A DNA stretch of 64,000 bases, taken from assembly GCF_000026545.1 (NCBI RefSeq), contig NC_011601.1; one strand, given 5' to 3'. Made by a program: the position numbers and the translations under genes. The notes beneath the pieces are model-generated. The model ran no database searches and was not told the DNA's origin. It saw only the letters and a list, made by a program, of their open reading frames with translations. Shown here in pieces: positions 3,480-57,758 of this stretch. Origin of the DNA: Escherichia coli O127:H6 str. E2348/69 (lineage in GTDB: Bacteria > Pseudomonadota > Gammaproteobacteria > Enterobacterales > Enterobacteriaceae). How positions within the stretch are numbered: the first letter of the stretch is position 1; each line of letters begins with the position of its first letter.

Positions 3480-4670
3480 ATGCTTGACGCTCAAACCATC
3501 GCTACAGTAAAAGCCACCATCCCTTTACTGGTGGAAACGGGCCCAAAGTTAACCGCCCATTTCTACGACCGTATGTTTACTCATAACCCAGAACTCAAAG
3601 AAATTTTTAACATGAGTAACCAGCGTAATGGCGATCAACGTGAAGCCCTGTTTAACGCTATTGCCGCCTACGCCAGCAATATTGAAAACCTGCCTGCGCT
3701 GCTGCCAGCGGTAGAAAAAATCGCGCAGAAGCACACCAGTTTCCAGATCAAACCGGAACAGTACAACATCGTCGGTGAACACCTGTTGGCAACGCTGGAC
3801 GAAATGTTCAGCCCGGGACAGGAAGTGCTGGACGCGTGGGGTAAAGCCTATGGCGTACTGGCTAATGTATTTATCAATCGCGAGGCGGAAATCTATAACG
3901 AAAACGCCAGCAAAGCCGGTGGTTGGGAAGGAACTCGCGATTTCCGCATTGTGGCTAAAACACCACGCAGCGCACTTATCACCAGCTTCGAACTGGAGCC
4001 GGTCGACGGTGGCGCAGTGGCAGAATACCATCCGGGGCAATATCTCGGCGTCTGGCTGAAGCCGGAAGGTTTCCCGCATCAGGAAATTCGTCAGTACTCT
4101 TTGACTCGCAAACCGGATGGCAAAGGCTATCGTATTGCGGTGAAACGCGAAGAGGGTGGGCAGGTATCCAACTGGCTGCACAATCACGCCAATGTTGGCG
4201 ATGTCGTGAAACTGGTCGCTCCGGCAGGTGATTTCTTTATGGCTGTCGCAGATGACACACCAGTGACGTTAATCTCTGCCGGTGTCGGTCAAACGCCAAT
4301 GCTGGCAATGCTCGACACGCTGGCAAAAGCAGGCCACACAGCACAAGTGAACTGGTTCCATGCGGCAGAAAATGGCGATGTTCACGCCTTTGCTGATGAA
4401 GTTAAGGAACTGGGGCTGTCACTGCCGCGCTTTACCGCGCACACCTGGTATCGTCAGCCGAATGAAGCCGATCGCGCTAAAGGTCAGTTTGATAGCGAAG
4501 GTCTGATGGATTTGAGCAAACTGGAAGGTGCGTTCAGCGATCCGACAATGCAGTTCTATCTCTGCGGCCCGGTTGGCTTCATGCAGTTTGCCGCGAAACA
4601 GTTAGTGGATCTGGGCGTGAAGCAGGAAAACATTCATTACGAATGCTTTGGCCCGCATAAGGTGCTGTGA
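3480..4670 (+). CDS. hmp: Flavohemoprotein / nitric oxide dioxygenase (396 aa)
   Basis: ORF track 3459..4670; translation from [33 protein letters not shown] with globin, FAD and NAD domains; length 396 aa from ATG at 3480. Confidence 0.97.
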
Positions 4671-4676
4671 TTTGAT

Positions 4677-4702
4677 GTTGCCGGATGGAAACATCCGGCA
4701 AC
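4677..4702. other. Hairpin gttgccggatg-gaaa-catccggcaac between convergent hmp and glnB (terminator-like, no strong U-run)
   Basis: 11 bp perfect inverted repeat seen in sequence. Confidence 0.4.
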
Positions 4703-4714
4703 CCTTGACGCGTT

Positions 4715-5089
<375 letters not shown>

Positions 5090-5113
5090 CTAAACGTAAC
5101 ACATAACGCCAAT

Positions 5114-6448
5114 TCATTCCTTGAAATCGTTTGCATCCAGTTCGTGTCGGGAAAGCAGTTTATAAAATTCTGTCCGGTTGCGCCCCGCCATTCTCGCCGC
5201 GTGGGTGACGTTGCCTTTGGTGATTTGCAGCAGCTTACGCAAATAGTTGAGTTCAAACTGATTACGTGCCTCTACAAAAGTTGGCAGCGCCGTATTTTCC
5301 CCCTCCAGCGCCTGCTCTACTAATGCATCGCTAATCACCGGAGATGATGTCAGCGCCACGCACTGTTCAATCACGTTGACCAACTGGCGCACATTACCCG
5401 GCCAGCTCGCGGTCATCAGGCGTTTCATCGCATCGGTGGAGAACGCGCGGACAAACGGTTTATGTCGCTCTGCCGCCTGGCGCAACAGGTGATTTGCCAG
5501 TAGCGGAATGTCTTCTGTGCGCTCCGCCAGTGCCGGAATTTTCAGGCTGACAACATTGAGGCGGTAATAAAGATCTTCACGGAATTCCCCACGCGCCATC
5601 GCTTTTGGCAGGTCGCGGTGAGTGGCGGAAATAATCCGCACGTCAATATCAATATCGCGGTTACTGCCCAGCGGGCGCACTTTACGCTCCTGCAACACGC
5701 GCAGCAGTTTGACCTGCAACGGTGCGGGCATATCGCCAATCTCATCGAGAAATAGCGTACCGCCTTCCGCCGCCTGGAATAAACCTTCGCGATTGCTGAC
5801 AGCGCCAGTAAACGCGCCACGCGCATGACCAAATAGCTCCGACTCCAGCAATTGCTCGGGTAATGCGCCACAGTTAATAGCAATAAATGGCTTGCTGTTG
5901 CGCGGGCTGGCGTTGTGGATAGCCTGGGCGAAAATCTCTTTCCCGGTGCCGCTCTGGCCGTTAATCAAAACGCTAACGTCTGATTGTGCCACCAGCCGCG
6001 CCTGTTCCAGCAAGCGCAGCATCAGCGGGCTGCGGGTGACAATCGCCTCGCGCCAACGTTCGTCGGTGGCTGGCGCGGATTGTTCCAGCGCATCGTCAAT
6101 TGCCTGATATAGCGCATCTTTATCGACAGGCTTGGTGAGAAAACTGAACACGCCCTGCTGTGTTGCAGCAACGGCATCAGGAATAGAACCATGCGCGGTA
6201 AGAATAATTACTGGCATTCCCGGCTGCACTTTCTGGATTTCAGCAAACAGCTGCATACCGTCCATTTCATCCATCCGCAGGTCGCTGATGACTAAATCTA
6301 CTTTTTCGCGATTCAGTACCCGCAATCCTTCAGCACCACTTTCCGCCGTGACCACACTGTAGCCTTCGCTGGTCAGGCGCAGGCCAAGCAGTTTCAGCAA
6401 TCCCGGATCGTCATCGACCAGTAATAAATGCGCAGGTTTATGGCTCAT
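5114..6448 (-). CDS. glrR: Sigma54-dependent response regulator GlrR (444 aa)
   Basis: ORF track 5114..6550; receiver domain ([17 protein letters not shown]), AAA+ sigma54-activator motifs (GESGTGKE-like) and C-terminal HTH; start placed at [14 protein letters not shown] giving 444 aa. Confidence 0.95.
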
Positions 6449-7151
6449 CAGGAGTGACCTCATCGGTGGATGGCGCGGGCTTTTCACTCTCGTGCGGCGT
6501 ATCCGGCGAGAAATTTCCAGCCGGTTTGCGGGTCGAGAGCTGGCGTTCAATATCGGTCAGGTTTTCCAGCTTGCGGGTAGTGAGTTCCAGTTGCTGTTGT
6601 AGAACGTGATGTTGCTGGCGCAAAGTATCCAGCTCGCTGTCGCTGGACTGCTGGAGTTTGCTGTAGCGTTGGCGCTCTTCCACCAGTTGCAGTTGCAGCG
6701 CCTGACCGTCGCGCCAAAGTTGATACAGTGGGCGAACCTGTGCCGGGATCTTGGTACTTAGCGCATCAATGCGCGCGACCAGCTGGCGGCGCTCATACGG
6801 CGTAATTTTGGCGTCGGCGAGCAAAATCCCTTGTTTAAAGGTATTTTGCCAGTTGCCGTCGTCATATTGGCGGGCTTGCTGACGCGACTGCGCAGGCATT
6901 AAACGATCAGCACAATCCATCGCCCGCAGCCAGTAAAGCGGATTGGTTTCGGTTGATTTACCTTGCAGCGCCCAGATGTCGCTACATTCAGTAGAAAGAT
7001 AGTCAGCCAGTTGATAAACCGGAATTTTTTCTTCTGCTGGCGTATCAATGGCTGGCTTATTGTGACTCTGCACGCAACCCAGCAATGCCAGACATGGCAG
7101 CCCTGCCAGCCACAGCCGTCGGGGCAATAATCGTTGAAAAATGTGTCGCAT
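6438..7151 (-). CDS. qseG: Outer-membrane lipoprotein QseG/YfhG (237 aa)
   Basis: ORF track 6438..7157; signal/lipobox LAGLPCLALLGCVQ; 3' end overlaps glrR start, consistent with the glrK-qseG-glrR operon. Confidence 0.9.
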   Translation of the reverse strand: MRHIFQRLLPRRLWLAGLPCLALLGCVQSHNKPAIDTPAEEKIPVYQLADYLSTECSDIWALQGKSTETNPLYWLRAMDCADRLMPAQSRQQARQYDDGNWQNTFKQGILLADAKITPYERRQLVARIDALSTKIPAQVRPLYQLWRDGQALQLQLVEERQRYSKLQQSSDSELDTLRQQHHVLQQQLELTTRKLENLTDIERQLSTRKPAGNFSPDTPHESEKPAPSTDEVTPDEP

Positions 7152-7315
7152 ATTCACCAGACTTAAAGCCTATCCCAGTGGGCGTAATTGTTGCAGGCAG
7201 TTTGGACATGGACAGCGCGGAGAAACCGGAGCGTACATGTCGTACGTGAAGATTTCGAGCACTGCCCGGGGCCAAACTGGCAAATAAAATAGCCTGATGG
7301 GATAGGCTGTTAGCA

Positions 7316-8743
7316 TTATTTCGTGTTTTTCGACGACGGTAATTCAATGCGGAAACAAACATCTTGCCCGCTCTCGTCGACCAGATACAGTTCCCCTTGC
7401 ATACGGCGAATACAATCCCTGGCAATGCTTAATCCCAGACCGCTGCCCTTCACCGCCCCTTTTCGCTGGTGGCTTCCCTGAAAAAAGGGTTCGAAGATCA
7501 TGGCGCGTTCCTCTTGCGGAATGGGCGTGCCTGTATTGATGACATCAATATAAACCCGCGCACCATGTAAACTGCTGCGAAGGCAAATGTTACCGGATTC
7601 AGCCCCGTAGTGCACCGCATTGGAGTAAAGATTATCCAGTACGCTCATCAGCAGCATTGGCTCCGCCAGGCAAGCTGTTGCTTTGAGATCAACGTCGGTA
7701 TGCATCATTTTAGCCCGTGCGGGCAGGCTATGAGCAGAAACCACTGTCTCCACCAGCGGTGCTAACTCAACATTCTCCAGTTCCACCGCACTGTCCGCCT
7801 GTTTACGGTTGTAATCAAGCAGTTGTTCGATCAGCTTTTGCAAATTGCGGCTGCTGCTATCAAGAATGCTCACCACCTCTTTTTGCTCTGGCGTAAGCGG
7901 CCCGACAACCTGATCAGCCAGTAATTCAGTGCCCTCGCGCATACTCGCCAGTGGCGTTTTTAATTCATGAGATAAATGTCTTAAAAATTGATGGCGTTGG
8001 GATTCCAGCCATGACAGGCGCTCACTTAACCAAAGAATACGTTGCCCAACCGAGCGTAACTCGCTCGGTCCACTGAACGAGACGCTATTGCCCAGAGAAC
8101 GCCCTTCCCCCAGCCGGTTGATCATGCGCTCGATATTTTTCACCGGACCGATAATCATCCTCGTGAAAAGCAGTACCATCACCAGACTCACCAGAAATAG
8201 CACCAGCGATTGCCAACCAAAATATTGCCCACGTTCGGCGATTTCACGCTGAAGTTGCTGCCCACGAGAGAACACTACTGTGCGCGTGGCCTGCACCATT
8301 TCGGTATTGGCACTGGCAAAGGCTTCCAGACGCGCGGCGGCAGCAGCATCGGGACCGCTGTTGTTACACTGAAGTTGAGCCAGATTGTTCAAATCCTGAC
8401 GTAATGCCTGGTAGAGTTTATCGTCCGGCAGCACGCCTGCGTGGGCATCGAGCATTTCGCTGTAACGCTTGCGCTGGCTTTGATAAACCTTCGCAAGCGT
8501 AGGGTCGTCCAGCACGCAGTACTGACGATAGCTGCGCTCCATCTCCAGTGCCGCGTTGGTCATCGCTTCACTGCGCCGGGCATCAATAAGCGTAGTGCGG
8601 TTAACCAGCGCCGCCTGATCGCTAAGTGCATTCAGGCTTTGCCAGGCTTGCCATGCCAGCACCAACAGGGGCAGCAGAATCAGCAAAAATGCCAGCATTA
8701 CCAGTTGTCGTAATGAGCGGGGAAAAACGGGCCAGCGTTTCAA
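7316..8743 (-). CDS. glrK: Sensor histidine kinase GlrK (475 aa), TTG start
   Basis: ORF track 7316..8806; HisKA H-box (HELKTPL) and HATPase motifs; the 475 aa product starting (M)KRWPVFPRSL requires the TTG at 8741-8743. Confidence 0.93.
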   Translation of the reverse strand: MKRWPVFPRSLRQLVMLAFLLILLPLLVLAWQAWQSLNALSDQAALVNRTTLIDARRSEAMTNAALEMERSYRQYCVLDDPTLAKVYQSQRKRYSEMLDAHAGVLPDDKLYQALRQDLNNLAQLQCNNSGPDAAAAARLEAFASANTEMVQATRTVVFSRGQQLQREIAERGQYFGWQSLVLFLVSLVMVLLFTRMIIGPVKNIERMINRLGEGRSLGNSVSFSGPSELRSVGQRILWLSERLSWLESQRHQFLRHLSHELKTPLASMREGTELLADQVVGPLTPEQKEVVSILDSSSRNLQKLIEQLLDYNRKQADSAVELENVELAPLVETVVSAHSLPARAKMMHTDVDLKATACLAEPMLLMSVLDNLYSNAVHYGAESGNICLRSSLHGARVYIDVINTGTPIPQEERAMIFEPFFQGSHQRKGAVKGSGLGLSIARDCIRRMQGELYLVDESGQDVCFRIELPSSKNTK

Positions 8744-8797
8744 GGCGTTACTCTCGTCAGACGCGAATAGCCTGATGCTAACCGAGGGGAAGTTCAG

Positions 8798-8985
8798 ATA
8801 CAACAAAGCCGGGAATTACCCGGCTTTGTTACGGAATAAGGCGGTGCCTAACTCGACGTTTCGCCCGATGGTTGATATAGCTACGCTGATATCAGAAGTT
8901 GGACGGCAGGCACCTTGTTGTGCGTCATTCGAATTTTATGTAGCACGTCCCGAAGGGGCTGACATAAGTCGGTGAATGAGCCACT
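8798..8985 (-). ncRNA. glmY: Small RNA GlmY
   Basis: Reverse complement reads AGTGGCTCATTCACCGACTTATGTCAGCCCCTTCGGGACGTGCTACATAAAATTCGAATGACGCACAACAAGGTGCC..., ending in hairpin AAAGCCGGGTAATTCCCGGCTTTGTT; recognised as glmY by sequence and by position upstream of glrK. Confidence 0.9.
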
Positions 8986-8996
8986 GCTTACTATTA

Positions 8997-9012
8997 TGCA
9001 GTAACTGTGCCA
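8997..9012 (-). promoter_or_regulatory. Sigma54 promoter of glmY (TGGCAC-N5-CTGCA), 12 nt upstream of the glmY 5' end
   Basis: Reverse complement tggcacagttactgca matches the -24/-12 consensus with correct spacing to the glmY start at 8985. Confidence 0.85.
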
Positions 9013-9101
9013 ATAAAGAAAATAGTTTGGTAACATACTGATTATACGCTGCTTTGAGGGGTTTATGGCTTCTCCGCTATTTGAATGTAAATCAGCCACT
9101 G

Positions 9102-9215
9102 TGTCGCTAAAAAGAGACAACTTAAGATAAACTTATTAGATAATATTAAAATCAATGAGTTAAGTGTCACCAAAAAGCGACACGGCAAACCACCCATTGT
9201 CGTGATTTAAAGACA
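9102..9215 (-). promoter_or_regulatory. Three GlrR-type boxes TGTC-N10-GACA (9102-9119, 9165-9182, 9198-9215) upstream of the glmY sigma54 promoter
   Basis: tgtcgctaaaaagagaca, tgtcaccaaaaagcgaca and tgtcgtgatttaaagaca read directly; the arrangement matches the known GlrR activator sites of glmY. Confidence 0.8.
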
Positions 9216-9241
9216 CAAAAAAGCTCCCGAAGTTGGGAGCT
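9214..9241 (-). terminator. Intrinsic terminator of purL (stem agctccc/gggagct then U-run on minus strand)
   Basis: Hairpin followed by A6 on the plus strand (T6 on minus), downstream of the purL stop. Confidence 0.75.
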
Positions 9242-9261
9242 CATAATAGCGGTTGGTGCTT

Positions 9262-9296
9262 AATGCCGGATGCGGCGTGAATGCCTCATCCGGGCT
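9262..9296. repeat. REP (repetitive extragenic palindrome) element
   Basis: gccggatgcggcgtgaatgcctcatccgggc matches the REP consensus GCCGGATGCGGCGTGAACGCCTTATCCGGCCTAC. Confidence 0.8.
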
Positions 9297-9318
9297 GCAA
9301 TACCAATGGGTTGACGAC

Positions 9319-12300
9319 TTACCCCAACTGCTTACGTGCATTGCGGAAAATGCGCATCCATGGGCCATCCTCGCCCCAGTTTTCCGGATGCCAGGAGTTG
9401 CTGACAGTACGGAAAACACGTTCCGGGTGCGGCATCATAATGGTGACTCGACCACTTTCAGTCGTGACTGCCGTAATACCGTTCGGTGAACCGTTCGGGT
9501 TAGCCGGGTAGGTTTCAGTGACTTTGCCGAAGTTATCGACATAGCGCAGTGCCACCAGCCCTTTGCTTTCCAGTGCCGCCAGATGCGCCGCATCGCGCAC
9601 TTCAACGCGCCCTTCACCGTGAGAGACAGCAATCGGCATCTGCGAGCCCACCATCCCCTGCAACAGCAGCGACGGGCTTTGGGTTACTTCTACCAGACTG
9701 AAACGCGCTTCAAAGCGATCGGAGGTGTTACGCACAAAACGTGGCCACAACTCGCTACCTGGGATCAGTTCACGCAGATTAGACATCATCTGGCAACCGT
9801 TACATACCCCCAGCGCCAGCGTTTGCGGACGATGGAAGAAGGTTGCAAACTCATCGCGTACACGGTCATTGAACAGGATAGACTTCGCCCAACCTTCACC
9901 AGCGCCCAGCACATCACCGTAGGAAAAACCACCGCACGCGACCAGGGCGTGGAAACCCTCCAGGCCCGTGCGTCCAGCCAGCAGATCGCTCATATGCACG
10001 TCGATAGCATCGAAGCCTGCACGGTGGAAAGCTGCCGCCATTTCAACATGCGAGTTCACGCCCTGCTCACGCAGCACGGCAACTTTCGGGCGCGCGCCAG
10101 TGGCAATAAACGGTGCTGCCACATCTTCGTTGATATCGAACGACAGTTTTACATTCAGGCCCGGATCGGCGTCGTTTGATTTCGCCTGGTGCTCCTGGTC
10201 AGCACACTCCGGGTTGTCACGCAGGCGCTGCATCTGCCAGGTAGTTTCTGCCCACCAGACACGCAACGTGGTGCGGCTTTCGCTAAATACAGTCTGCCCG
10301 TTGGCGGTAATCACAAAACGGTCACCGGAAACCGCCTGCCCAACATAATGGACGCAATCAGCAAGCCCATGCTGTGCCAGTACCGCTTCAACGGCTTCAC
10401 GGTCAGCGGCTCGCACCTGAATCACCGCACCCAGTTCTTCGCTAAACAATGCAGCCAGGCGATCGTCACCCAGAGTGGCGATATCCGCGTCAATGCCACA
10501 ATGACCAGCAAAGGCCATTTCCGCCAGCGTTACCAGCAGGCCGCCATCAGAGCGGTCGTGATACGCCAGCAGCTTACGCTGTGCAACCAGCGCCTGAATC
10601 GCGTCATAGAAGCCTTTCAGTTGGGCAACATCGCGTACATCTGCCGGTTTGTCGCCAAGCTGACGATAAACCTGCGCCAGTGCCGTTGCGCCCAGCGCGT
10701 TATTGCCTTTGCCCAAATCAATCAGCAACAGTGCGTTATCTTCGGTAGAAAGCTGCGGCGTAATGGTGTGACGTACATCTTCCACGCGGGCAAATGCGGA
10801 AATCACCAGCGACAACGGCGACGTCATTTCGCGCTCTTCGTTACCTTCCTGCCAGCGGGTTTTCATCGACATAGAGTCTTTACCCACCGGTATCGTCAGG
10901 CCCAGCGCCGGACAAAGTTCTTCGCCCACAGCTTTAACGGCTTCATACAGGCCCGCATCTTCACCAGGGTGGCCTGCCGCCGCCATCCAGTTGGCGGAAA
11001 GTTTAATGCGTTTGATATCGCCAATTTGTGTTGCGGCGATGTTGGTTAGCGCTTCACCGACTGCCAGACGGGCAGAAGCGGCGAAATCCAGCAGCGCAAC
11101 TGGCGCACGTTCGCCAATTGCCATCGCTTCGCCATAGTAGCTGTCGAGGCTGGCGGTAGTGACCGCGCAGTTAGCGACCGGCACCTGCCACGGCCCCACC
11201 ATCTGATCGCGCGCCACCATGCCGGTTACGCTGCGGTCACCGATGGTCACCAGGAAAGTTTTCTCCGCCACGGTCGGCAGATGCAGCACGCGTTTCACCG
11301 CGTCAGCGATGGTGATCCCTTCACGGGCCAGCGCGTCGCCTTTCGCTTTCAGCGTTTGTACATCGCGGGTCATCTTCGGCGTTTTGCCAAGCAGTACGTC
11401 CAGCGGTAGATCAATCGGCTGATTATCAAAATGACGATCGTGCAAAGAAAGATGCAGTTCTTCGGTCGCTTCACCAATCACCGCGTAGGGTGCGCGCTCA
11501 CGCTTACACAGTTCGTCAAACAGCGGTAACTGATCGGCAGCAACCGCCAGCACGTAGCGTTCCTGGGATTCGTTACACCAGATTTCCAGCGGGCTCATGC
11601 CCGGTTCGTCGCTCAGGATATCGCGCAGTTCAAATTTACCGCCGCGCCCGCCGTCGCTCACCAGTTCCGGCATGGCGTTAGAAAGACCGCCTGCGCCAAC
11701 GTCGTGGATAAACAGGATTGGGTTGGCATCACCAAGCTGCCAGCAACGGTCGATCACTTCCTGGCAGCGACGCTCCATCTCCGGGTTGTCGCGCTGTACG
11801 GAAGCAAAGTCGAGGTCGGCATCAGACTGACCAGATGCCATGGAAGACGCCGCGCCGCCGCCAAGACCGATGTTCATTGCCGGGCCGCCGAGAACGACCA
11901 GCTTCGCACCAACGTTGATCTCGCCTTTTTGTACGTGATCGGCGCGAATGTTGCCGATCCCACCCGCCAGCATGATCGGTTTGTGATAACCGCGCAGCTC
12001 TTCGCCATTGTGGCTGTTCACTTTTTCTTCATAAGTACGGAAGTAGCCGTTCAGTGCCGGACGACCAAATTCGTTGTTAAACGCCGCACCGCCCAGCGGG
12101 CCTTCGGTCATGATGTCCAGCGCGGTAACAATGCGCTCAGGTTTACCGAAATCTTCTTCCCACGGCTGTTCGAAGCCAGGAATTCGCAGGTTGGATACGG
12201 AGAAACCAACCAGACCGGCTTTCGGCTTTGCGCCACGTCCGGTGGCACCTTCATCGCGGATTTCACCGCCGGAACCGGTCGCCGCGCCCGGCCACGGAGA

Positions 12301-13206
12301 AATCGCCGTCGGGTGGTTGTGAGTTTCGACTTTCATCAGAATATGCGCCGGTTCCTGATGGAAATCGTAGCGGCCCGTTTCGTGGTCAGCAAAGTAGCGG
12401 CCCACTTCAGAACCTTCCATTACGGCGGCGTTATCTTTATAAGCAGAGAGAACGTGATCCGGCGTGGTTTCGAAGGTGTTTTTGATCATCTTAAATAGCG
12501 ATTTCGGCTGCTGTTCACCATCGATAACCCAGTCGGCGTTAAAAATTTTGTGGCGGCAGTGCTCGGAATTCGCCTGGGCAAACATATACAGTTCGATGTC
12601 GTTCGGGTTACGACCAAGCTTTGTGAAAGCATCCTGCAAATAGTCAATTTCATCTTCCGCCAGTGCCAGGCCAAGACGCAGGTTAGCGTCGATTAGCGCC
12701 TGACGGCCCTGCCCCAGCAAATCAACGCTGGTGACCGGAGTCGGTTGATGGTGTGCAAACAGCTGCTCTGCATCATCTAAAGCAAAAAAGACCGTTTCCA
12801 TCATGCGGTCGTGCAGTTCAGCGGTAACCTGCTGCCATTGTTCATTGGTCAGCGTACCGGCTTCTATATAGTAAGCCACGCCGCGCTCAAGGCGGTTTAC
12901 CTGTTGCAGCCCGCAGTTATGGGCAATATCGGTCGCTTTCGAAGACCAGGGAGAGATGGTGCCAGGACGCGGGGTCACCAGCAGGAGTTTGCCTTGCGGG
13001 GCGTGGCTGGCGAGTGCCGGGCCATATTTCAGCAGGCGTTCAAGTTGTGCGTGCTCATCATCGTTTAACGGCGCATTGAGGTCAGCAAAATGGACATACT
13101 CGGCGTAAATAGTGTGAACCGGGAGCCTGGCAGCCTGAAAACGTGCCAGCAGTTTGTTGATTCGGAATGCCGACAATGCAGGCGAACCACGCAGAATTTC
13201 CATCAT
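9319..13206 (-). CDS. purL: Phosphoribosylformylglycinamidine synthase (1295 aa)
   Basis: ORF track 9319..13362; start placed at [20 protein letters not shown] giving 1295 aa; C-terminal glutamine amidotransferase domain. Confidence 0.97.
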
Positions 13207-13283
13207 AAGTCTCTCGTCTTCTAAGCTTTCGGTGTACCCAAGGGGGGGGAAACGGGCGTCATTATAAAGAATCTGATGCGCTG

Positions 13284-13299
13284 ACGAAACCGTTTGCGT
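13284..13299 (-). promoter_or_regulatory. PurR operator (pur box) upstream of purL
   Basis: Reverse complement ACGCAAACGGTTTCGT matches the pur-box consensus ACGCAAACGTTTTCGT. Confidence 0.7.
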
Positions 13300-13464
13300 G
13301 GAAATAAAATCACCATCGTGAATTAGCAACGCGTGCCGCCAATGGCTGTAATAAGTTGCCAACTGGCGCAGGTTTACGCAAAATGCCGCTCATTTATGAG
13401 TAAACCTTTCACTATTATTACGTTTTTTCAAGCTGGGACGCGCACGACACAGAGAATTAACTAA

Positions 13465-15566
<2,102 letters not shown>

Positions 15567-18179: not shown

Positions 18180-18262
18180 TTTTCGTTGGAATCGTGTGCT
18201 GCACAAAATTAAAGTTAAAAAGTAAAACCCCCGTTCCTTACCAGTTCGGGGGTTTTACTTTA
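18180..18262 (+). ncRNA. ohsC: Candidate antitoxin sRNA OhsC (approximate ends), ending at hairpin aaaacccccg...cgggggtttt plus T-run
   Basis: A 19 nt segment (18186-18204) is an 18/19 direct repeat of 17937-17955 in the shoB 5' UTR, so a plus-strand transcript here is complementary to shoB mRNA; a possible -10 (cataat, about 18170) and an intrinsic terminator at 18226-18262 bracket it. Ends are inferred. Confidence 0.5.
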
Positions 18263-20144: not shown

Positions 20145-21757
<1,613 letters not shown>

Positions 21758-21997
21758 TCAGCACACGAAACAGACCTGATATACATGGCTCGGCTAACTG
21801 CTTCACTGCAGTTTCAGTTTACCGGTATATGGGGACCAACGCTGTTTCGTGTGCCGTGGCAACCTGGAGGTGCCAACCTTAAACTTCGGGGGAATATTCT
21901 ATACACAACGACGGGGGATGTCGTTAGCCACGGGAGATTTATCTCATAAATAATTCACGTTGTCGCCATAACGGCGACAACGTGACGAAGATGGCTA

Positions 21998-22987: not shown

Positions 22988-24787
<1,800 letters not shown>

Positions 24788-24984
24788 AAAGTATGATTAT
24801 TGTGCCTTAATGCCCGGTTAACCAGGCTTTTAGAAGTCGCTGTTCTGAGCTTAACGTCTGTATTAATAGAAACGCCGCATTCTACACTACAACATTGAGG
24901 CGAGGAAATGTTCATACCGTATGGATTGTGGTATCTGGAAACGTCCTCGCATTTGTTATGCAAAATGCAACAAAGCCAGTGAAA

Positions 24985-25464
24985 TCACTGGCTCGCGTCT
25001 TCCGAAGATGTTTCAAATCGCACAAGGCCAGGCGGCAATGCCACGCTTAAGATGATCGGTTGCCATTCAGACCGGGCAGCAAACTTTCGAGAGCAGCCAC
25101 GTGCAATCAGGAATCCACCAACGCCACCGAGAATCGCACCGCATAATGCTGCAATATCTGAAGCAAAGAGTAGCTGAAATAGTGAAGCGATGAGGAATAG
25201 TCCCATCAACGGCGACATATAAACCAGTAATGCGGAGCTAAGCAGGCTGCCTTCGGCGATTCCTAATTCTACTTTTTGCCCCGGCACTAACGGCTCATCA
25301 CAGGGTACGACAATGGTATGCGTGGTTTGCGGGCCAAGTTTATTCAACACGCGGCTACCGCAACCGGCACGTGAAGCGCAGCTGCTGCATGAGGCTTTAA
25401 CATCACAACTGACCAGCGCCTGCCCGTTTTCCCAGGAGACGACGGTAGCCCACTCTTTGATCAT
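24985..25464 (-). CDS. rseC: SoxR-reducing system / sigma-E regulatory protein RseC (159 aa)
   Basis: ORF track 24985..25464; operon position after rseB. Confidence 0.93.
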   Translation of the reverse strand: MIKEWATVVSWENGQALVSCDVKASCSSCASRAGCGSRVLNKLGPQTTHTIVVPCDEPLVPGQKVELGIAEGSLLSSALLVYMSPLMGLFLIASLFQLLFASDIAALCGAILGGVGGFLIARGCSRKFAARSEWQPIILSVALPPGLVRFETSSEDASQ

Positions 25465-26417
25465 TGCGCTGCCCCGAACTTAATATTCTCGGCAATGCGT
25501 TTCGCCGTTTGCGGCGGCAGTTCACCGACAATGGTGATTTCGGCGTTATCACGTACGCTTGTACTGACGGTTCTGCGTCCGGTGCGCAACATCTGATCGG
25601 TGCTCGATGGCGTAGCGCGGTTAACGTTTACCGAAAAGCTGAATAATCCGTCGGAATAGAGACGTGATTCGATAGGCATGTTGTCCATCGTCGGTAGCGG
25701 ACGTCGGCTACTGGAAACTTCGCTAAAACCCTGTGGCAACCAGGTTGGCGTCCAGCTGAATTTAGCTTTTTCACCTACAGGAACAGAAAGCAACGGCGGC
25801 AAATTTGCCTTCGCCAGCGTCTGCATACTGCTGCTGATATCCTGATTGACATTAAAAGCAATCACGCGAAATTGTTCCAGCGTTTCACCATCGCGATCAA
25901 GGAGATCAACCCTCATCGGTAATTTCGATTCGGTGTCCATCCACACGATGTAGCTGTAGCGTGTACCATCTCGGGCAACCACGCGAATAACTTCGCAAAG
26001 ACGATCAGCAATACGCGTGCGCCCGACGGAGATAAAGTCGTAGTAAGGAGAAAGGCGTTTGAAATCGGTATAGATGAGCGATGGCAGAGAATCAACAATG
26101 TAATCGCCATTAAGCGTGAACGGTTCAAGTCCCGGTTCAAAATAGCTGATTTCATTGCCGCGCTGTACCACTTCCCGGCGCGGGCCATCCATTTGCAACA
26201 ATTGTGCAAGAGGACGGTTATCGAGGCGTGCATGTCGATAACGCAGAGACTCAACACCCTGTTTATTGATGCTGATGAATGACAGCTCGTAATTCAGTGA
26301 CTGACTGGCCAGGTTCATCTGCTGTAATAACGCCCCGGACGCGGGAGTGGCCGAGGCGTTAGCAGAGAATAACAGGCTACCTGTCACTAATGACATGGCA
26401 AACCAAAGTTGCTTCAT
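25461..26417 (-). CDS. rseB: Sigma-E regulatory protein RseB (318 aa)
   Basis: ORF track 25461..26417; signal peptide MKQLWFAMSLVTGSLLFSANASA; operon position. Confidence 0.95.
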   Translation of the reverse strand: MKQLWFAMSLVTGSLLFSANASATPASGALLQQMNLASQSLNYELSFISINKQGVESLRYRHARLDNRPLAQLLQMDGPRREVVQRGNEISYFEPGLEPFTLNGDYIVDSLPSLIYTDFKRLSPYYDFISVGRTRIADRLCEVIRVVARDGTRYSYIVWMDTESKLPMRVDLLDRDGETLEQFRVIAFNVNQDISSSMQTLAKANLPPLLSVPVGEKAKFSWTPTWLPQGFSEVSSSRRPLPTMDNMPIESRLYSDGLFSFSVNVNRATPSSTDQMLRTGRRTVSTSVRDNAEITIVGELPPQTAKRIAENIKFGAAQ

Positions 26418-45054: not shown

Positions 45055-45174
45055 ATGCCTGGCAGTTCCCTACTCTCGCATGGGGAGACCCCACACTACC
45101 ATCGGCGCTACGGCGTTTCACTTCTGAGTTCGGCATGGGGTCAGGTGGGACCACCGCGCTAAGGCCGCCAGGCA
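45055..45174 (-). rRNA. rrfG: 5S ribosomal RNA (120 nt)
   Basis: Reverse complement reads TGCCTGGCGGCCTTAGCGCGGTGGTCCCACCTGACCCCATGCCGAACTCAGAAGTGAAACGCCGTAGCGCCGATGGTAGTGTGGGGTCTCCCCATGCGAGAGTAGGGAACTGCCAGGCAT; operon named rrnG by synteny (kgtP/clpB flanks). Confidence 0.97.
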
Positions 45175-45272
45175 AATTCTGTTTTATCAACACGTCACGT
45201 TATGACCTGTCGATTTAATCTGTATCAGGCTGAAAATCTTCTCTCAATCCGCCAAAACATCTTCGGCGTTGT

Positions 45273-48176
<2,904 letters not shown>

Positions 48177-48369
48177 TCACAACCCGAAGATGTTTCTTGC
48201 GATTCATCATCGTGCTGCGAAAATTTGAGAGACTCACGAACAACTCTCGTTGTTCAGTGTTTCAATTTTCAGCTTGATCCAGATTTTTAAAGAGCAAATA
48301 TCTCAAACATCACCCGAAGATGAGTTTTGAGATATTAAGGCAGGTGACTTTCACTCACAAACCAGCAAG

Positions 48370-48445
48370 TGGCGTCCCCTAGGGGATTCGAACCCCTGTT
48401 ACCGCCGTGAAAGGGCGGTGTCCTGGGCCTCTAGACGAAGGGGAC
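48370..48445 (-). tRNA. gltW: tRNA-Glu (UUC) in the 16S-23S spacer
   Basis: Reverse complement GTCCCCTTCGTCTAGAGGCCCAGGACACCGCCCTTTCACGGCGGTAACAGGGGTTCGAATCCCCTAGGGGACGCCA (76 nt, anticodon TTC in the CTTTCAC loop). Confidence 0.95.
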
Positions 48446-48530
48446 GTATCAGTCTGCTTCGCAAGACGCCTTGCTTTTCACTTTCTATCAGACAATCTGT
48501 GTGAGCACTGCAAAGTACGCTTCTTTAAGG

Positions 48531-50072
<1,542 letters not shown>

Positions 50073-50513: not shown

Positions 50514-53087
50514 TTACTGGACGGCGACAATCCGGTCTTCATTAACTTCCAGGCGAATAACTTTACCCGGAACCAATTCACCTGACAGTATTTGCTGTGC
50601 CAACGGGTTTTCGATCTGCTGCTGGATAGCACGTTTCAGAGGACGTGCACCATAGACCGGATCGTAACCGTTCTCGCTCAGCAGTTTCAGCGCCTCGTCA
50701 GAAATGTGGATTTCATAACCACGTTCTTCCAGACGTTTGTACAGACGTTTCAACTGAATCTGCGCAATCGACGCAATGTGCTGTTCACCCAGCGGATGGA
50801 AGACCACCACTTCATCGATACGGTTAATGAATTCCGGACGGAAGTTATGGCTTACCACACCGAGCACCAGCTCTTTCATGTGCGCATAATCCAGTTCACC
50901 GAAGCGTTCCTGAATCAAATCGGAACCGAGGTTAGAGGTCATAATGACAACCGTATTACGGAAGTCGACCGTTCTCCCCTGTCCGTCAGTCAGACGCCCA
51001 TCATCCAGTACCTGCAACAGAATGTTGAAGACATCCGGATGCGCTTTTTCAACTTCATCCAGCAGAATGACGGAATACGGACGACGACGCACCGCTTCGG
51101 TCAGGTAGCCACCTTCTTCATAACCGACATATCCCGGAGGCGCACCAACCAGACGAGACACCGAGTGTTTCTCCATAAACTCGGACATATCGATACGGAC
51201 CATCGCCTCGTCGCTATCAAACATAAAGTTCGCTAGCGCCTTACAAAGCTCAGTTTTCCCCACACCGGTTGGGCCGAGGAACAGGAATGAACCAATCGGG
51301 CGATTTGGATCCGCCAGCCCCGCACGGCTACGACGAATAGCGTTAGATACCGCATCAACCGCTTCGTTCTGACCAATAACGCGATGGTGCAGTTCTTGCT
51401 CCATACGCAGCAGTTTTTCGCGCTCGCTTTCCATCATGCGAGAAACCGGAATCCCCGTCCAACGCGCCAGCACTTCAGCAATTTCGGCATCGGTCACTTT
51501 ATTACGCAACAGACGCATAGTTTTGCCTTCGAGCTGCGTTGCGGCTTCCAGTTGCTTTTCCAGTTCCGGGATTTTGCCGTATTGCAGTTCAGACATCCGC
51601 GCCAGGTCCCCCACACGGCGAGCCTGTTCAATAGCGATTTTCGCCTGTTCCAGTTCCGCTTTAATGGTCTGTGTACCAGAAAGCGATGCTTTCTCTGCTT
51701 TCCACTCTTCTTCTAACTCGGAGTACTGACGTTCTTTGTCGCTCAGTTCTTCGTTGAGCATATCCAGGCGTTTTTTACTGGCTTCATCAGACTCTTTCAT
51801 TAACGCCTGTTGTTCCAGTTTAAGCTGGATGATACGGCGATCGAGTCGGTCGAGTTCTTCTGGTTTTGAGTCAATCTGCATACGAATGCTGGATGCTGCT
51901 TCATCGATCAGGTCGATGGCTTTATCCGGCAGCTGACGGTCAGCAATGTAGCGATGAGACAACGTCGCCGCTGCAACAATTGCCGGGTCAGTAATTTGCA
52001 CATGGTGGTGCAACTCATAACGTTCTTTCAGGCCACGCAGAATAGCAATGGTATCTTCAACAGAAGGCTCGGCAACAAACACTTTCTGGAAACGACGTTC
52101 CAGCGCAGCATCTTTTTCGATGTACTGGCGATATTCGTCAAGCGTCGTGGCACCTACGCAGTGCAATTCACCACGCGCCAGTGCCGGTTTCAGCATGTTT
52201 CCGGCGTCCATTGCGCCATCGGCTTTACCCGCGCCGACCATGGTATGTAATTCGTCGATAAACAGGATGACGTTGCCTTCCTGTTTGGCAAGATCGTTAA
52301 GTACGCCTTTTAAACGTTCTTCAAACTCACCGCGATATTTCGCCCCAGCCACCAGCGCGCCCATATCCAGCGCCAGTACGCGGCGGCCTTTCAACCCTTC
52401 GGGCACTTCGCCGTTGATAATACGCTGCGCCAGACCTTCAACGATGGCAGTTTTACCGACGCCGGGTTCACCAATCAATACCGGGTTATTTTTAGTACGA
52501 CGTTGCAGCACCTGAATGGTACGGCGAATTTCTTCATCACGACCAATCACCGGATCAAGTTTGCCTTGTTCGGCTCGTTCGGTAAGGTCGATGGTATATT
52601 TTTTCAAAGCCTGACGTTGGTCTTCAGCACCCTGATCGTTCACGCTTTCACCTCCACGCATTTGTTCAATCGCTTGAGTAATGTTGGCGGTGGTCGCCCC
52701 TGCTGCTTTCAGGATGTCGGCCAGTGTGCCGCGAGACTCAAGTGCCGCCAGAACGAACAGTTCTGACGAGATAAAGTTATCACCACGTTTTTGCGCCAGC
52801 TTGTCGCAAAGATTAAGAACGCGCACCAGATCCTGTGATGGCTGGACATCACCACCAGTACCTTCAACCTGTGGTAAACGATTTAATGCCTGATTGATAT
52901 CTGTGCGCAACTGGCCAGCATTAATGCCAGCGGATGTTAATAAAGGACTAACCGAACCCCCTTCCTGATTCAGCAGGGCGCTCATTAAATGAAGTGGTTC
53001 GATGAATTGGTTGTCGTGCCCGAGTGCAAGTGATTGGGCATCGGCAAGAGCAAGCTGGAATTTATTAGTAAGACGATCCAGACGCAT
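50514..53087 (-). CDS. clpB: Disaggregase chaperone ClpB (857 aa)
   Basis: ORF track 50514..53099; two AAA+ modules with Walker A ([16 protein letters not shown]); start placed at [18 protein letters not shown] giving 857 aa. Confidence 0.97.
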
Positions 53088-53125
53088 AACTCCTCCCATA
53101 ACGGATCAAAGTTGCTACTGGAGAT

Positions 53126-53155
53126 TAAATGAGGTCATCCCTCAATTATTCAAGG
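53126..53155 (-). promoter_or_regulatory. Sigma-32 heat-shock promoter of clpB (-35 CTTGAA, -10 CCTCATTTA)
   Basis: Reverse complement ccttgaataattgagggatgacctcatttaatc matches sigma-32 consensus TTGAAA-N13-15-CCCCATnT. Confidence 0.75.
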
Positions 53156-53216
53156 TTATTGACCAGATTAATGTGAAAAGAAAATCACGCGTACCGGATC
53201 GTCTTGATTCTTTAGG

Positions 53217-57556: not shown

Positions 57557-57612
57557 GTTGACAGCGTGAAAACAGTACGGGTACTGTACTAAAGTCACTT
57601 AAGGAAACAAAC

Positions 57613-57660
57613 ATGAAACACACACCGTTTTTCTTCGCATTCTTTTTTACCTTCCCCTGA
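57613..57660 (+). CDS. pheL: pheA leader peptide (15 aa, Phe-rich): MKHTPFFFAFFFTFP
   Basis: Small ORF with seven Phe codons directly upstream of pheA; classic attenuation leader. Confidence 0.92.
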   Translation: MKHTPFFFAFFFTFP

Positions 57661-57706
57661 ATGGGAGGCGTTTCGTCGTGTGAAACAGAATGCGAAGACG
57701 AACAAT

Positions 57707-57736
57707 AAGGCCTCCCAAATCGGGGGGCCTTTTTTA
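57707..57736 (+). terminator. pheA attenuator terminator (aaggcctccc-aaatc-ggggggcctt then T6)
   Basis: Hairpin plus T-run between pheL and pheA. Confidence 0.9.
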
Positions 57737-57758
57737 TTGATAACAAAAAGGCAACACT

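What the first reader, a model, noticed from the sequence alone, without database searches (positions are those of the whole stretch)
8798..9215. glmY sRNA with sigma54 promoter and three TGTC-N10-GACA GlrR boxes (known module, not in ORF track)
The glrK-purL intergenic region is not empty. It carries the GlmY small RNA on the minus strand, a -24/-12 promoter correctly spaced to its 5' end, and three evenly spaced TGTC-N10-GACA boxes upstream, next to the glrK-qseG-glrR operon that encodes the cognate two-component system. Listed so this 575 bp stretch is not mistaken for unexplained sequence.
Basis: partly seen in the sequence, partly recalled or inferred. Interest (0 to 1): 0.15.

Follow-up and report, generated by a model that had tools for sequence, protein, structure and literature searches.

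The report
Known glmY small RNA control module
The stretch between glrK/qseE and purL holds the well-studied E. coli small RNA gene glmY with its published sigma-54 promoter, three GlrR (QseF) binding boxes and two IHF sites, so it is ordinary, already-explained sequence that gene-calling pipelines simply leave unannotated.

Summary
The finding is correct and already known. Window 3700-14330 is base-for-base identical to E. coli E2348/69, an EPEC O127:H6 strain.

**glmY.** Rfam GlmY (RF00128) matches 8838-8985 on the minus strand at 147 bits, against a gathering score of 33. The curated K-12 glmY (b4441, 184 nt) aligns without gaps to 8802-8985, with 182 of 184 bases identical.

**Promoter.** TGGCACAGTTACTGCA lies at 9012-8997, placing GG at -26/-25 and GC at -14/-13.

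**GlrR boxes.** The only three TGTC-N10-GACA matches in the whole 64 kb are at 9102-9119, 9165-9182 and 9198-9215.

**Flanking genes.** glrR, qseG and glrK/qseE lie directly downstream of glmY on the minus strand, at lower window coordinates.

- The boxes are not evenly spaced. Centre-to-centre distances are 63 and 33 bp, and this uneven spacing is conserved across enterobacterial genera.
- The annotated 3' end is 8802, not 8798.

The rest of the 575-bp gap holds the qseEGF promoter region, the purL terminator and a REP element. Novelty: none. Interest is low.

The parts
8802..8985 (-). glmY primary transcript (184 nt). The +1 base is A at 8985.
   Evidence: Gap-free alignment to the K-12 ncRNA glmY b4441 (L002 5158-5341, -) with 182/184 identity. 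The two substitutions are at 8932 (U in the window, A in K-12) and 8832 (G in the window, A in K-12). MFE is -64.2 kcal/mol with z = -4.7 against shuffles.
8838..8985 (-). GlmY core, equal in length to the 148-nt processed, active form.
   Evidence: Rfam RF00128 match at 147.1 bits covering the full model. The 184-nt and 148-nt lengths are stated in PMC4152352. Across 21 enterobacterial sequences the consensus structure has 98.6% of cells paired and 6 pairs with compensatory changes.
8802..8830 (-). glmY terminator hairpin: AACAAAGCCGGG / CCCGGCUUUGUU with a 5-nt loop.
   Evidence: A 12-bp stem occupies the last 29 nt of the MFE fold. The simple terminator scan did not call it because there is no T-run after the stem.
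8997..9012 (-). Sigma-54 (-24/-12) promoter TGGCACAGTTACTGCA.
   Evidence: GG lies at -26/-25 and GC at -14/-13. TGGCA and TGC are invariant in a 14-species promoter alignment. An equivalent motif sits at -27 or -28 in 25 of 26 glmY loci from other species.
8993..8998 (-). Overlapping sigma-70 -10 hexamer CATAAT (-13 to -8).
   Evidence: Read directly from the sequence. The published -10 element of the E. coli glmY sigma-70 promoter is described in PMC3045617. It is conserved in Escherichia, Citrobacter, Enterobacter, Kluyvera and Pluralibacter. It is absent in Erwinia, Pantoea, Photorhabdus and Hafnia.
9031..9043 (-). Promoter-proximal IHF consensus site AATCAGTATGTTA (-58 to -46).
   Evidence: Exact match to WATCARNNNNTTR. 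It forms a conserved island, ATCA..GTTA, in the promoter alignment. The paper reports two IHF-like sites flanking ABS3.
9102..9119 (.). GlrR/QseF box ABS3, promoter-proximal (-134 to -117).
   Evidence: Exact TGTC-N10-GACA match. It sits at -134 in most Enterobacteriaceae examined.
9150..9162 (+). Distal IHF consensus site AATCAATGAGTTA (-177 to -165), between ABS2 and ABS3.
   Evidence: Exact match to WATCARNNNNTTR. The same orientation and the same -177 position recur in many genera. TTGAT is nearly invariant in the promoter alignment.
9165..9182 (.). GlrR/QseF box ABS2 (-197 to -180).
   Evidence: Exact TGTC-N10-GACA match. It is the most conserved of the three boxes across genera.
9198..9215 (.). 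GlrR/QseF box ABS1, distal (-230 to -213).
   Evidence: Exact TGTC-N10-GACA match. It is conserved at -230 in the relatives examined.
8744..8801 (-). qseEGF (glrK) promoter and 5' leader. The inferred transcription start is near 8768.
   Evidence: [quoted passage not shown] The coordinate is my inference from the start codon at 8743. TAGCAT at 8779-8774 is a possible -10 element, read from the sequence only.
7316..8743 (-). glrK/qseE sensor kinase gene.
   Evidence: RefSeq annotation of the identical sequence. Pfam finds HAMP, HisKA and HATPase_c.
6438..7151 (-). qseG (yfhG) lipoprotein gene.
   Evidence: RefSeq annotation. Pfam Lipoprotein_20/YfhG, E = 1.4e-80.
5114..6448 (-). glrR/qseF, the sigma-54-dependent response regulator (enhancer-binding protein).
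   Evidence: RefSeq annotation. Pfam finds Response_reg, Sigma54_activat (E = 7e-74) and AAA_lid_14.
9221..9242 (-). purL intrinsic terminator: GAGCTCCCAACTTCGGGAGCTT followed by TTTTGTGTCT.
   Evidence: Terminator scan: 8 pairs plus a T-run, 77 bp downstream of the purL stop codon.
9265..9295 (.). REP-type palindrome GCCCGGATGAGGCATTCACGCCGCATCCGGC. Bases 9269-9286 are absent from K-12.
   Evidence: Read from the sequence. The 18-bp gap appears in the K-12 alignment. There is a sub-threshold similarity to the REP-derived family naRNA4, 22.5 bits against a gathering score of 59.5.

Best explanation
This is the glmY locus of E. coli; the sequence is identical to EPEC strain E2348/69.

**Transcription.** glmY is transcribed on the minus strand from 8985 to a terminator hairpin ending at 8802, giving a 184-nt RNA. 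Two superimposed promoters share this start site. One is a sigma-54 promoter (9012-8997). The other is a weak sigma-70 promoter whose -10 element, CATAAT (8998-8993), overlaps the sigma-54 -12 element.

**Activation.** The sigma-54 promoter is switched on by phosphorylated GlrR (QseF), an enhancer-binding protein encoded downstream in the glrK(qseE)-qseG-glrR(qseF) operon. GlrR binds three TGTC-N10-GACA boxes centred at -125.5, -188.5 and -221.5. IHF bound at sites flanking the proximal box bends the DNA so that GlrR can contact the polymerase.

**RNA function.** The RNA is trimmed at its 3' end to 148 nt. That form acts as a decoy: it sequesters the RNase E adaptor protein RapZ. This protects the homologous sRNA GlmZ, which then activates glmS translation when glucosamine-6-phosphate is scarce.

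**Shown here:** the identity of the RNA, its structure, all the DNA motifs with their positions and conservation, and the neighbouring genes.

**Taken from published work on K-12, not tested here:** GlrR and IHF binding, the dual-promoter activity, 3' processing and the RapZ decoy mechanism.
For: - **RNA family.** Rfam GlmY_tke1 matches 8838-8985 (-) at 147.1 bits against a gathering score of 33.
- **K-12 identity.** 182/184 identity, gap-free, to the curated K-12 glmY b4441.
- **Strain and synteny.** Window 3700-14330 is 100% identical to the E2348/69 chromosome. The gene order there is glnB, glrR, qseG, qseE, then the gap, then purL.
- **Conservation in E. coli.** The intergenic region is present in 5425 of 5426 complete E. 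coli genomes.
- **Fold.** MFE z-score of -4.7.
- **Structure across species.** In 21 enterobacterial sequences, 98.6% of cells are paired, against 27-40% when partners are slid. Six pairs carry compensatory changes, reached by 1 of 500 shuffles.
- **GlrR boxes.** The only 3 TGTC-N10-GACA matches in 64 kb lie within 114 bp here.
- **Promoter position.** Sigma-54 motif with GC at -14/-13.
- **IHF sites.** Two exact IHF consensus matches flank the proximal box.
- **Independent retrieval.** I retrieved related loci with a pattern lying only inside the RNA. In those loci the sigma-54 motif sits at -27 or -28 in 25 of 26, and the boxes keep 32-33 and 62-63 bp spacing from Citrobacter to Yersinia and Photorhabdus.
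- **Footprinting.** Invariant columns in the 14-species promoter alignment fall on the boxes, the IHF sites and the -24/-12 elements, while overall identity is only 53%.
- **Activator domains.** GlrR carries a receiver domain and a Sigma54_activat domain.
[quoted passage not shown] PMC4152352 gives the 184-nt and 148-nt lengths and the RapZ decoy role. PMC6075780 covers the qseEGF promoter.
Against: Nothing found contradicts this reading. Five caveats apply.

- The sigma-54 motif by itself is no rarer than chance in this window: 3 matches found against 3.6 expected.
- The terminator lacks a clean U-run, and the simple scan did not call it.
- The outer helix of stem 1 was fixed by my retrieval pattern, so its invariance across loci is uninformative.
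- A convincing sigma-70 -35 hexamer is not evident; the candidates are TTCTTT, TTTCTT and TTTTCT.
The window also differs from K-12 at position -2 (G in place of C) and at two positions within the RNA.
Confidence: 0.97

Rival explanations
1. The RNA is the paralogous sRNA GlmZ (same Rfam clan, CL00011) rather than GlmY. In that case it would act by base-pairing with the glmS mRNA rather than as a decoy.
For: GlmY and GlmZ are homologous and share a structure. A lower-scoring overlapping match from the same clan was suppressed in the Rfam output.
Against: GlmY_tke1 is the best-scoring clan member, at 147 bits. The sequence is 182/184 identical to the K-12 glmY gene b4441. It occupies the glmY-specific position between purL and glrK/qseE. 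E. coli glmZ has a sigma-70-only promoter with no GlrR or IHF sites (PMC3045617), whereas this locus has all of them.
Confidence: 0.01
2. The region encodes a small protein, from one of the mechanical ORFs at 8775-8975 (+, 66 aa) or 8881-9120 (-, 79 aa), and the RNA match is incidental.
For: Both ORFs appear in the six-frame listing.
Against: Neither ORF is annotated in the curated K-12 record or in the listed RefSeq records. Close relatives carry 1-nt and 4-nt indels inside the region (Citrobacter youngae +1, Enterobacter cloacae -1, Pseudocitrobacter -4), and these would break any reading frame. Substitutions are compensatory in RNA stems rather than following a codon pattern. The minus-strand ORF would have to start upstream of the transcription start and run across the promoter.
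Confidence: 0.01
3. In this strain the sigma-54/GlrR arm is vestigial, and glmY is made only from the overlapping sigma-70 promoter. The boxes would then be conserved remnants, or would serve another regulator.
For: E. coli glmZ has lost sigma-54 control in favour of sigma-70 (PMC3045617), so such a loss has precedent. E. albertii shows degenerate boxes, with GACG in place of GACA. The window differs from K-12 at position -2 and in the spacers of ABS1 and ABS2.
Against: All twelve TGTC/GACA half-site bases, the -24 and -12 elements and both IHF cores are intact here. They are identical to K-12, where GlrR, sigma-54 and IHF dependence was shown experimentally. The differences from K-12 lie only in non-consensus positions. 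The glrK-qseG-glrR genes are intact.
Confidence: 0.02

Closest known systems
E. coli K-12 glmY (b4441; formerly SroF/Tke1; Rfam RF00128) with its sigma-54/sigma-70 dual promoter, three GlrR(QseF) ABS boxes and IHF sites (Reichenbach et al. 2009, as cited in PMC3045617; Gopel et al. 2011, PMC3045617)
   Same: - Same gene in the same position between purL and glrK.
- 182/184 identity in the RNA.
- Identical sigma-54 element, CATAAT -10 element, box half-sites, IHF cores and distances: boxes at -230, -197 and -134.
   Different: Only strain-level polymorphism separates the two:
- G in place of C at position -2.
- U54 and G154 in the RNA (both A in K-12).
- Three substitutions in the N10 spacers of ABS1 and ABS2.
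- One substitution in the N4 of the proximal IHF site.
- An 18-bp longer REP element next to the purL terminator.
GlmZ (SraJ, Rfam clan CL00011), the base-pairing paralogue
   Same: Homologous sequence and stem-loop architecture. Both RNAs bind RapZ (PMC4152352).
   Different: GlmZ sits at a different locus. In E. coli it has a sigma-70-only promoter without GlrR or IHF sites. It base-pairs with glmS, whereas GlmY acts as a decoy.
Sigma-54 rpoEP2 promoter of rpoE, the other reported QseF/GlrR target
   Same: It uses the same activator and sigma factor, and the paired rpoEP2/rpoEP3 promoters use the same transcription start site, as at glmY (PMC6358824, PMC6075780). rpoE lies in this same window at 27100-27675 (-).
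   Different: It controls a protein-coding gene. Upstream of it only relaxed TGT-N12-ACA motifs are present, with no perfect TGTC-N10-GACA.

Membership tests
GlmY sRNA (Rfam RF00128 GlmY_tke1) | Covariance-model score above the curated gathering threshold over the full model | tested here: met
   147.1 bits against 33, covering model positions 1-163 of 163, at 8838-8985 (-).
GlmY sRNA (Rfam RF00128 GlmY_tke1) | Orthology to the curated E. coli K-12 glmY gene (b4441) | tested here: met
   Gap-free alignment of 184 nt with 182 bases identical.
GlmY sRNA (Rfam RF00128 GlmY_tke1) | Conserved synteny: located between purL and the glrK(qseE)-qseG-glrR(qseF) operon, on the same strand | tested here: met
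   Seen in the RefSeq annotation of the identical sequence. The same synteny holds in the enterobacterial loci that extend far enough to show both flanking genes.
GlmY sRNA (Rfam RF00128 GlmY_tke1) | Conserved stem-loop architecture: a 5' stem-loop, a central stem-loop and a terminator | tested here: met
   MFE fold with z = -4.7. The consensus structure has 98.6% of cells paired and 6 covarying pairs. Helix 1 was fixed by the retrieval pattern and is therefore uninformative.
GlmY sRNA (Rfam RF00128 GlmY_tke1) | 3' processing to a ~148-nt active form; RapZ binding and decoy action; no Hfq-dependent pairing with glmS | not testable with these tools
   Taken from the literature only (PMC4152352). 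The Rfam match length of 148 nt agrees with the processed form but does not demonstrate processing.
Sigma-54 promoter activated by the enhancer-binding protein GlrR/QseF | -24 GG and -12 GC elements (TGGCAC-N5-TTGCA) at the correct distance from the transcription start | tested here: met
   TGGCACAGTTACTGCA at 9012-8997, with GG at -26/-25 and GC at -14/-13. Conserved at -27 or -28 in 25 of 26 related loci.
Sigma-54 promoter activated by the enhancer-binding protein GlrR/QseF | Three upstream TGTC-N10-GACA activator binding sites more than 100 bp upstream | tested here: met
   Three exact matches at -134, -197 and -230, the only ones in 64 kb, against 0.68 expected. The 33 and 63 bp spacing is conserved across genera.
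Sigma-54 promoter activated by the enhancer-binding protein GlrR/QseF | IHF site(s) between or around the activator sites and the promoter | tested here: met
   Two exact WATCARNNNNTTR matches flank ABS3, as described in PMC3045617. These are sequence matches only; binding was not tested.
Sigma-54 promoter activated by the enhancer-binding protein GlrR/QseF | Cognate activator with receiver, sigma-54-interaction AAA+ and DNA-binding domains, together with its kinase, encoded nearby | tested here: met
   GlrR has Response_reg, Sigma54_activat and AAA_lid_14. GlrK has HAMP, HisKA and HATPase_c. The C-terminal HTH did not reach the Pfam threshold in this scan.
Sigma-54 promoter activated by the enhancer-binding protein GlrR/QseF | In vivo dependence on rpoN, glrR, glrK and ihfAB; binding of GlrR~P | not testable with these tools
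   Shown for K-12 in PMC3045617. Not shown for this strain.
Overlapping sigma-70 promoter of glmY | -10 hexamer CATAAT overlapping the sigma-54 -12 element, with the same start site | tested here: met
   CATAAT at 8998-8993, which is -13 to -8. It matches the published element.
Overlapping sigma-70 promoter of glmY | Recognisable -35 hexamer 16-18 bp upstream | tested here: inconclusive
   Only weak candidates are present: TTCTTT, TTTCTT and TTTTCT. The generic scan did not call this promoter. The literature describes it as weak.

The most novel reading that the evidence does not exclude
The few strain-specific differences from K-12 might measurably change GlmY level, 3' processing or read-through into qseEGF in this EPEC strain, and so tune QseEF/GlmY-dependent virulence regulation. 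The differences are G at position -2, U54 and G154 in the RNA (G154 lies just upstream of the terminator hairpin, in the 3' tail that processing removes), and the spacer changes in ABS1 and ABS2. Nothing in the sequence data argues for this; it is simply not excluded.
Probability: 0.04. Interest if true: 0.2.

Novelty: already known. Interest (0 to 1): 0.04.

Why it matters
Its value is bookkeeping, not discovery. The 575-bp glrK-purL gap is fully accounted for by the glmY gene and its control region, the qseEGF promoter, the purL terminator and a REP element.

It also illustrates a practical gap. Of the 40 PGAP-annotated E. coli records listed, none shows a feature over glmY, so ORF-based tracks make a well-characterised regulatory module look like empty DNA.

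The cross-genus check independently reproduces the published promoter architecture. It also shows that the uneven 33 and 63 bp box spacing, about 3 and 6 helical turns, is a conserved property of the module.

Tried and rejected
1. **Genome contigs pattern scan.** The pattern GCTCATTCAN{25,55}TCGAATGA was too permissive. About 95 of the 120 returned loci were chance matches in unrelated phyla. I kept only the 26 enterobacterial glmY loci (25 picked out by blastn, plus Yersinia artesiana L025, kept on organism name and confirmed by synteny). L106 was also examined and rejected as a chance hit with no synteny and no motifs.
2. **Sigma-54 consensus as stand-alone evidence.** I rejected this because there are 3 matches against 3.6 expected by chance. 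Only position and conservation make it meaningful.
3. **Generic promoter and terminator scans.** They found neither the glmY promoters nor its terminator. The one minus-strand sigma-70-like hit (GTGACA..TAATAT, 9170-9143) lies inside the upstream activator region, is not conserved as a promoter, and was set aside.
4. **Sub-threshold Rfam hits.** The rpfG hit (17 bits) merely reflects the sigma-54 promoter sequence. The naRNA4 hit (22.5 bits) reflects the REP element. Neither is a member of its family.
5. **Strict sigma-54 motif upstream of rpoE.** I looked for one to accompany the relaxed QseF-type motifs there and found none with my simple criterion. I did not pursue it.
6. **Edwardsiella hoshinae (L059).** It showed no promoter or boxes at the expected offsets. 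Its 5' end differs (GGTT...), so my assumed start may be misplaced. This was left unresolved.

Full report
**Observation**

The stretch lies between two minus-strand genes. Window 3700-14330 is base-for-base identical to the chromosome of E. coli E2348/69 (EPEC O127:H6, NZ_CP059840.2), so that record's annotation transfers exactly:

| Gene | Window coordinates (minus strand) |
|---|---|
| glnB | 4715-5053 |
| glrR | 5114-6448 |
| qseG | 6438-7151 |
| qseE/glrK | 7316-8743 (TTG start) |
| purL | 9319-13206 |

No feature is annotated over this gap in that record or in any of the other RefSeq (PGAP) records listed. Only the curated K-12 record carries an ncRNA there.

**The RNA**

A scan of the whole window against Rfam returns GlmY_tke1 (RF00128) at 8838-8985 on the minus strand. 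The score is 147.1 bits against a gathering score of 33, E = 8e-33, and the whole model is covered (repeated).

The curated K-12 glmY gene (b4441, 184 nt; L002 5158-5341, minus) aligns without any gap to window 8802-8985. Of 184 bases, 182 are identical. The two substitutions are at 8932 (U54) and 8832 (G154).

The 184-nt RNA folds into a 5' stem-loop, a central branched stem-loop and a 12-bp terminator hairpin (8802-8830). Its MFE is -64.2 kcal/mol, 4.7 standard deviations below dinucleotide shuffles.

The Rfam match is 148 nt long. That equals the published length of the processed, active GlmY; the primary transcript is 184 nt (PMC4152352).

**The promoter and upstream sites**

Reading upstream of +1 (A at 8985) on the minus strand, the following elements are present.

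- **Sigma-54 promoter.** TGGCACAGTTACTGCA lies at 9012-8997, with GG at -26/-25 and GC at -14/-13.
- **Sigma-70 -10 element.** Overlapping the -12 element is CATAAT at 8998-8993. This is the published -10 of the weak sigma-70 promoter that shares the same start site (PMC3045617).
- **GlrR boxes.** TGTC-N10-GACA has exactly three matches in the whole 64-kb window, at 9102-9119, 9165-9182 and 9198-9215. A dinucleotide-preserving shuffle expects 0.68 for the entire window. From those numbers, three matches inside one 575-bp gap would have a chance probability of order 1e-8; this figure is my inference.
- **IHF sites.** Two exact matches to the IHF consensus WATCARNNNNTTR lie at 9031-9043 (-) and 9150-9162 (+). 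They flank the promoter-proximal box, exactly as Gopel et al. describe ('two additional regions flanking ABS3').

**A correction on spacing**

The boxes are not 'evenly spaced'. Centre-to-centre distances are 63 bp (ABS3 to ABS2) and 33 bp (ABS2 to ABS1), or about 6.0 and 3.1 helical turns. The sites are therefore roughly in phase on one face of the helix, but they are not equidistant.

**Related sequences**

I scanned the genome collection with a pattern lying entirely inside the RNA, so that the upstream region was not pre-selected. The pattern was too loose, and most hits were chance matches in unrelated phyla. I recovered 26 enterobacterial glmY loci: 25 by blastn, plus Yersinia artesiana (L025), kept on organism name and confirmed by synteny.

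- **Synteny.** Where the locus extends far enough, purL lies upstream and glrK downstream.
- **Sigma-54 motif.** In 25 of the 26 loci a TGGCA(C/T)-N6-TGC motif sits at -27 or -28.
- **Box positions.** The boxes sit at -230, -197 and -134 in Citrobacter, Enterobacter, Kluyvera and their allies.
- **Box spacing.** In Erwinia, Pantoea, Photorhabdus and Yersinia the boxes are displaced by indels but keep the same 32-33 and 62-63 bp spacing.
- **Sigma-70 -10 element.** CATAAT is present in Escherichia, Citrobacter, Enterobacter, Kluyvera and Pluralibacter. It is absent in Erwinia, Pantoea, Photorhabdus and Hafnia. This matches the three-group scheme of the paper.
- **Footprinting.** A 14-species alignment of the 260 bp upstream has only 53% mean identity. 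Its invariant columns fall on the TGT/GAC half-sites of the three boxes, the IHF cores, TGGCA and TGC.
- **RNA structure.** For the RNA core, 21 distinct sequences give a consensus structure with 98.6% of cells paired, against 27-40% when partners are slid by 1-3 columns. Six pairs carry compensatory changes, a count reached by 1 of 500 shuffles. Helix 1 was fixed by my retrieval pattern and counts for nothing.
- **Reading frames.** Indels of 1 and 4 nt among close relatives inside the RNA exclude the two mechanical ORFs that overlap the region.

**The cognate system**

- GlrR has a receiver domain, a Sigma54_activat AAA+ domain (E = 7e-74) and an AAA lid domain.
- QseG is a YfhG lipoprotein.
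- GlrK has HAMP, HisKA and HATPase_c domains.

[quoted passage not shown] This places the start near 8768. The coordinate is my inference.

**Mechanism**

Shown here by sequence are the identity, structure, positions and conservation of all parts.

Established for K-12 in the literature and inferred for this strain:

- GlrK phosphorylates GlrR.
- GlrR~P binds the three boxes.
- GlrR activates sigma-54 RNA polymerase at the -24/-12 promoter.
- The overlapping sigma-70 promoter gives basal expression and is partly repressed by sigma-54 binding.
- The 184-nt transcript is trimmed to 148 nt.
- The trimmed RNA sequesters the RNase E adaptor RapZ. This spares GlmZ, which activates glmS translation when glucosamine-6-phosphate is limiting.

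**The rest of the gap**

- Bases 9221-9242 (-) form the purL intrinsic terminator.
- Bases 9265-9295 form a REP-type palindrome. Its 18 central bases (9269-9286) are missing in K-12.
- Bases 8744-8801 hold the qseEGF promoter and leader.

Nothing in the 575 bp is left unexplained.

**Rivals**

- **GlmZ rather than GlmY.** Excluded by the best clan score, the identity to b4441, the synteny and the promoter type.
- **A small protein.** Excluded by frame-breaking indels, the lack of annotation and the RNA-type covariation.
- **A vestigial sigma-54 arm in this strain.** Unlikely, because every consensus base is intact and identical to K-12. All differences from K-12 lie in non-consensus positions: -2 G/C, the spacers of ABS1 and ABS2, and the N4 of the proximal IHF site.

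**Verdict**

The module is already known in full detail and is present in 5425 of 5426 complete E. coli genomes. Novelty: already known. Interest is very low.

Noticed in passing
window 27980-28080 (upstream of rpoE 27100-27675, minus strand; rseD 27672-27827; nadB 28083-29705, plus strand): Two relaxed QseF/GlrR-type motifs, TGT-N12-ACA, lie in the rpoE-nadB intergenic region at 27985-28002 and 28059-28076. The literature reports a QseF-activated sigma-54 promoter (rpoEP2) for rpoE. I found no perfect TGTC-N10-GACA there, and no strict TGGCAC-N5-TTGCA with my simple scan.
   Followed up: partly
window 9265-9295 (18-bp difference at 9269-9286): The REP-type palindrome next to the purL terminator is complete in this strain. 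It has an 18-bp internal deletion in K-12, which accounts for the intergenic length of 575 bp here against 557 bp in K-12. Many E. coli genomes break the alignment at this point.
   Followed up: partly
L014 (Escherichia albertii) 9693-9952: The three GlrR boxes upstream of E. albertii glmY are degenerate. ABS1 and ABS2 end in GACG in place of GACA, and ABS3 reads AGTC...GACG. The -24 element is TGGCAT. The CATAAT sigma-70 -10 element is intact. This may indicate weakened GlrR control in that species.
   Followed up: no
L059 (Edwardsiella hoshinae) around 2190-2350: A glmY homologue sits between purL and glrK, but no sigma-54 motif or TGTC-N10-GACA box was found within 260 bp of my assumed start. 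The 5' end reads GGTT in place of AGTT, so the start may be misplaced.
   Followed up: no
window 8802-8985, and the RefSeq records listed: None of the 40 PGAP-annotated E. coli records listed shows a feature over glmY. Only the curated K-12 record does. This is despite a 147-bit Rfam match and presence of the region in 5425 of 5426 genomes.
   Followed up: yes
window 24669-25500 (+), 21673-21887 (-), 53068-53206 (-), 18185-18261 (+), 57612-57737 (+), 45057-50072 (-): Other Rfam matches above gathering score in the window:
- AsrC, antisense to rseC. It overlaps the coding sequence of rseC and the 3' end of rseB, which may contribute to the score.
- The rncO leader of rnc.
- RyfD.
- ohsC antitoxin RNA.
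- The Phe leader.
- A complete rRNA operon (16S, tRNA, 23S, 5S) with StyR-44 in the spacer.
   Followed up: no
window 8966-9011 (-): A sub-threshold Rfam hit to the Xanthomonas 'rpfG RNA' family (17 bits against a gathering score of 75.9). It aligns only through GGCACAG-TACTGCATA, that is, through the sigma-54 promoter sequence itself. It is a promoter look-alike, not an RNA homologue.
   Followed up: yes
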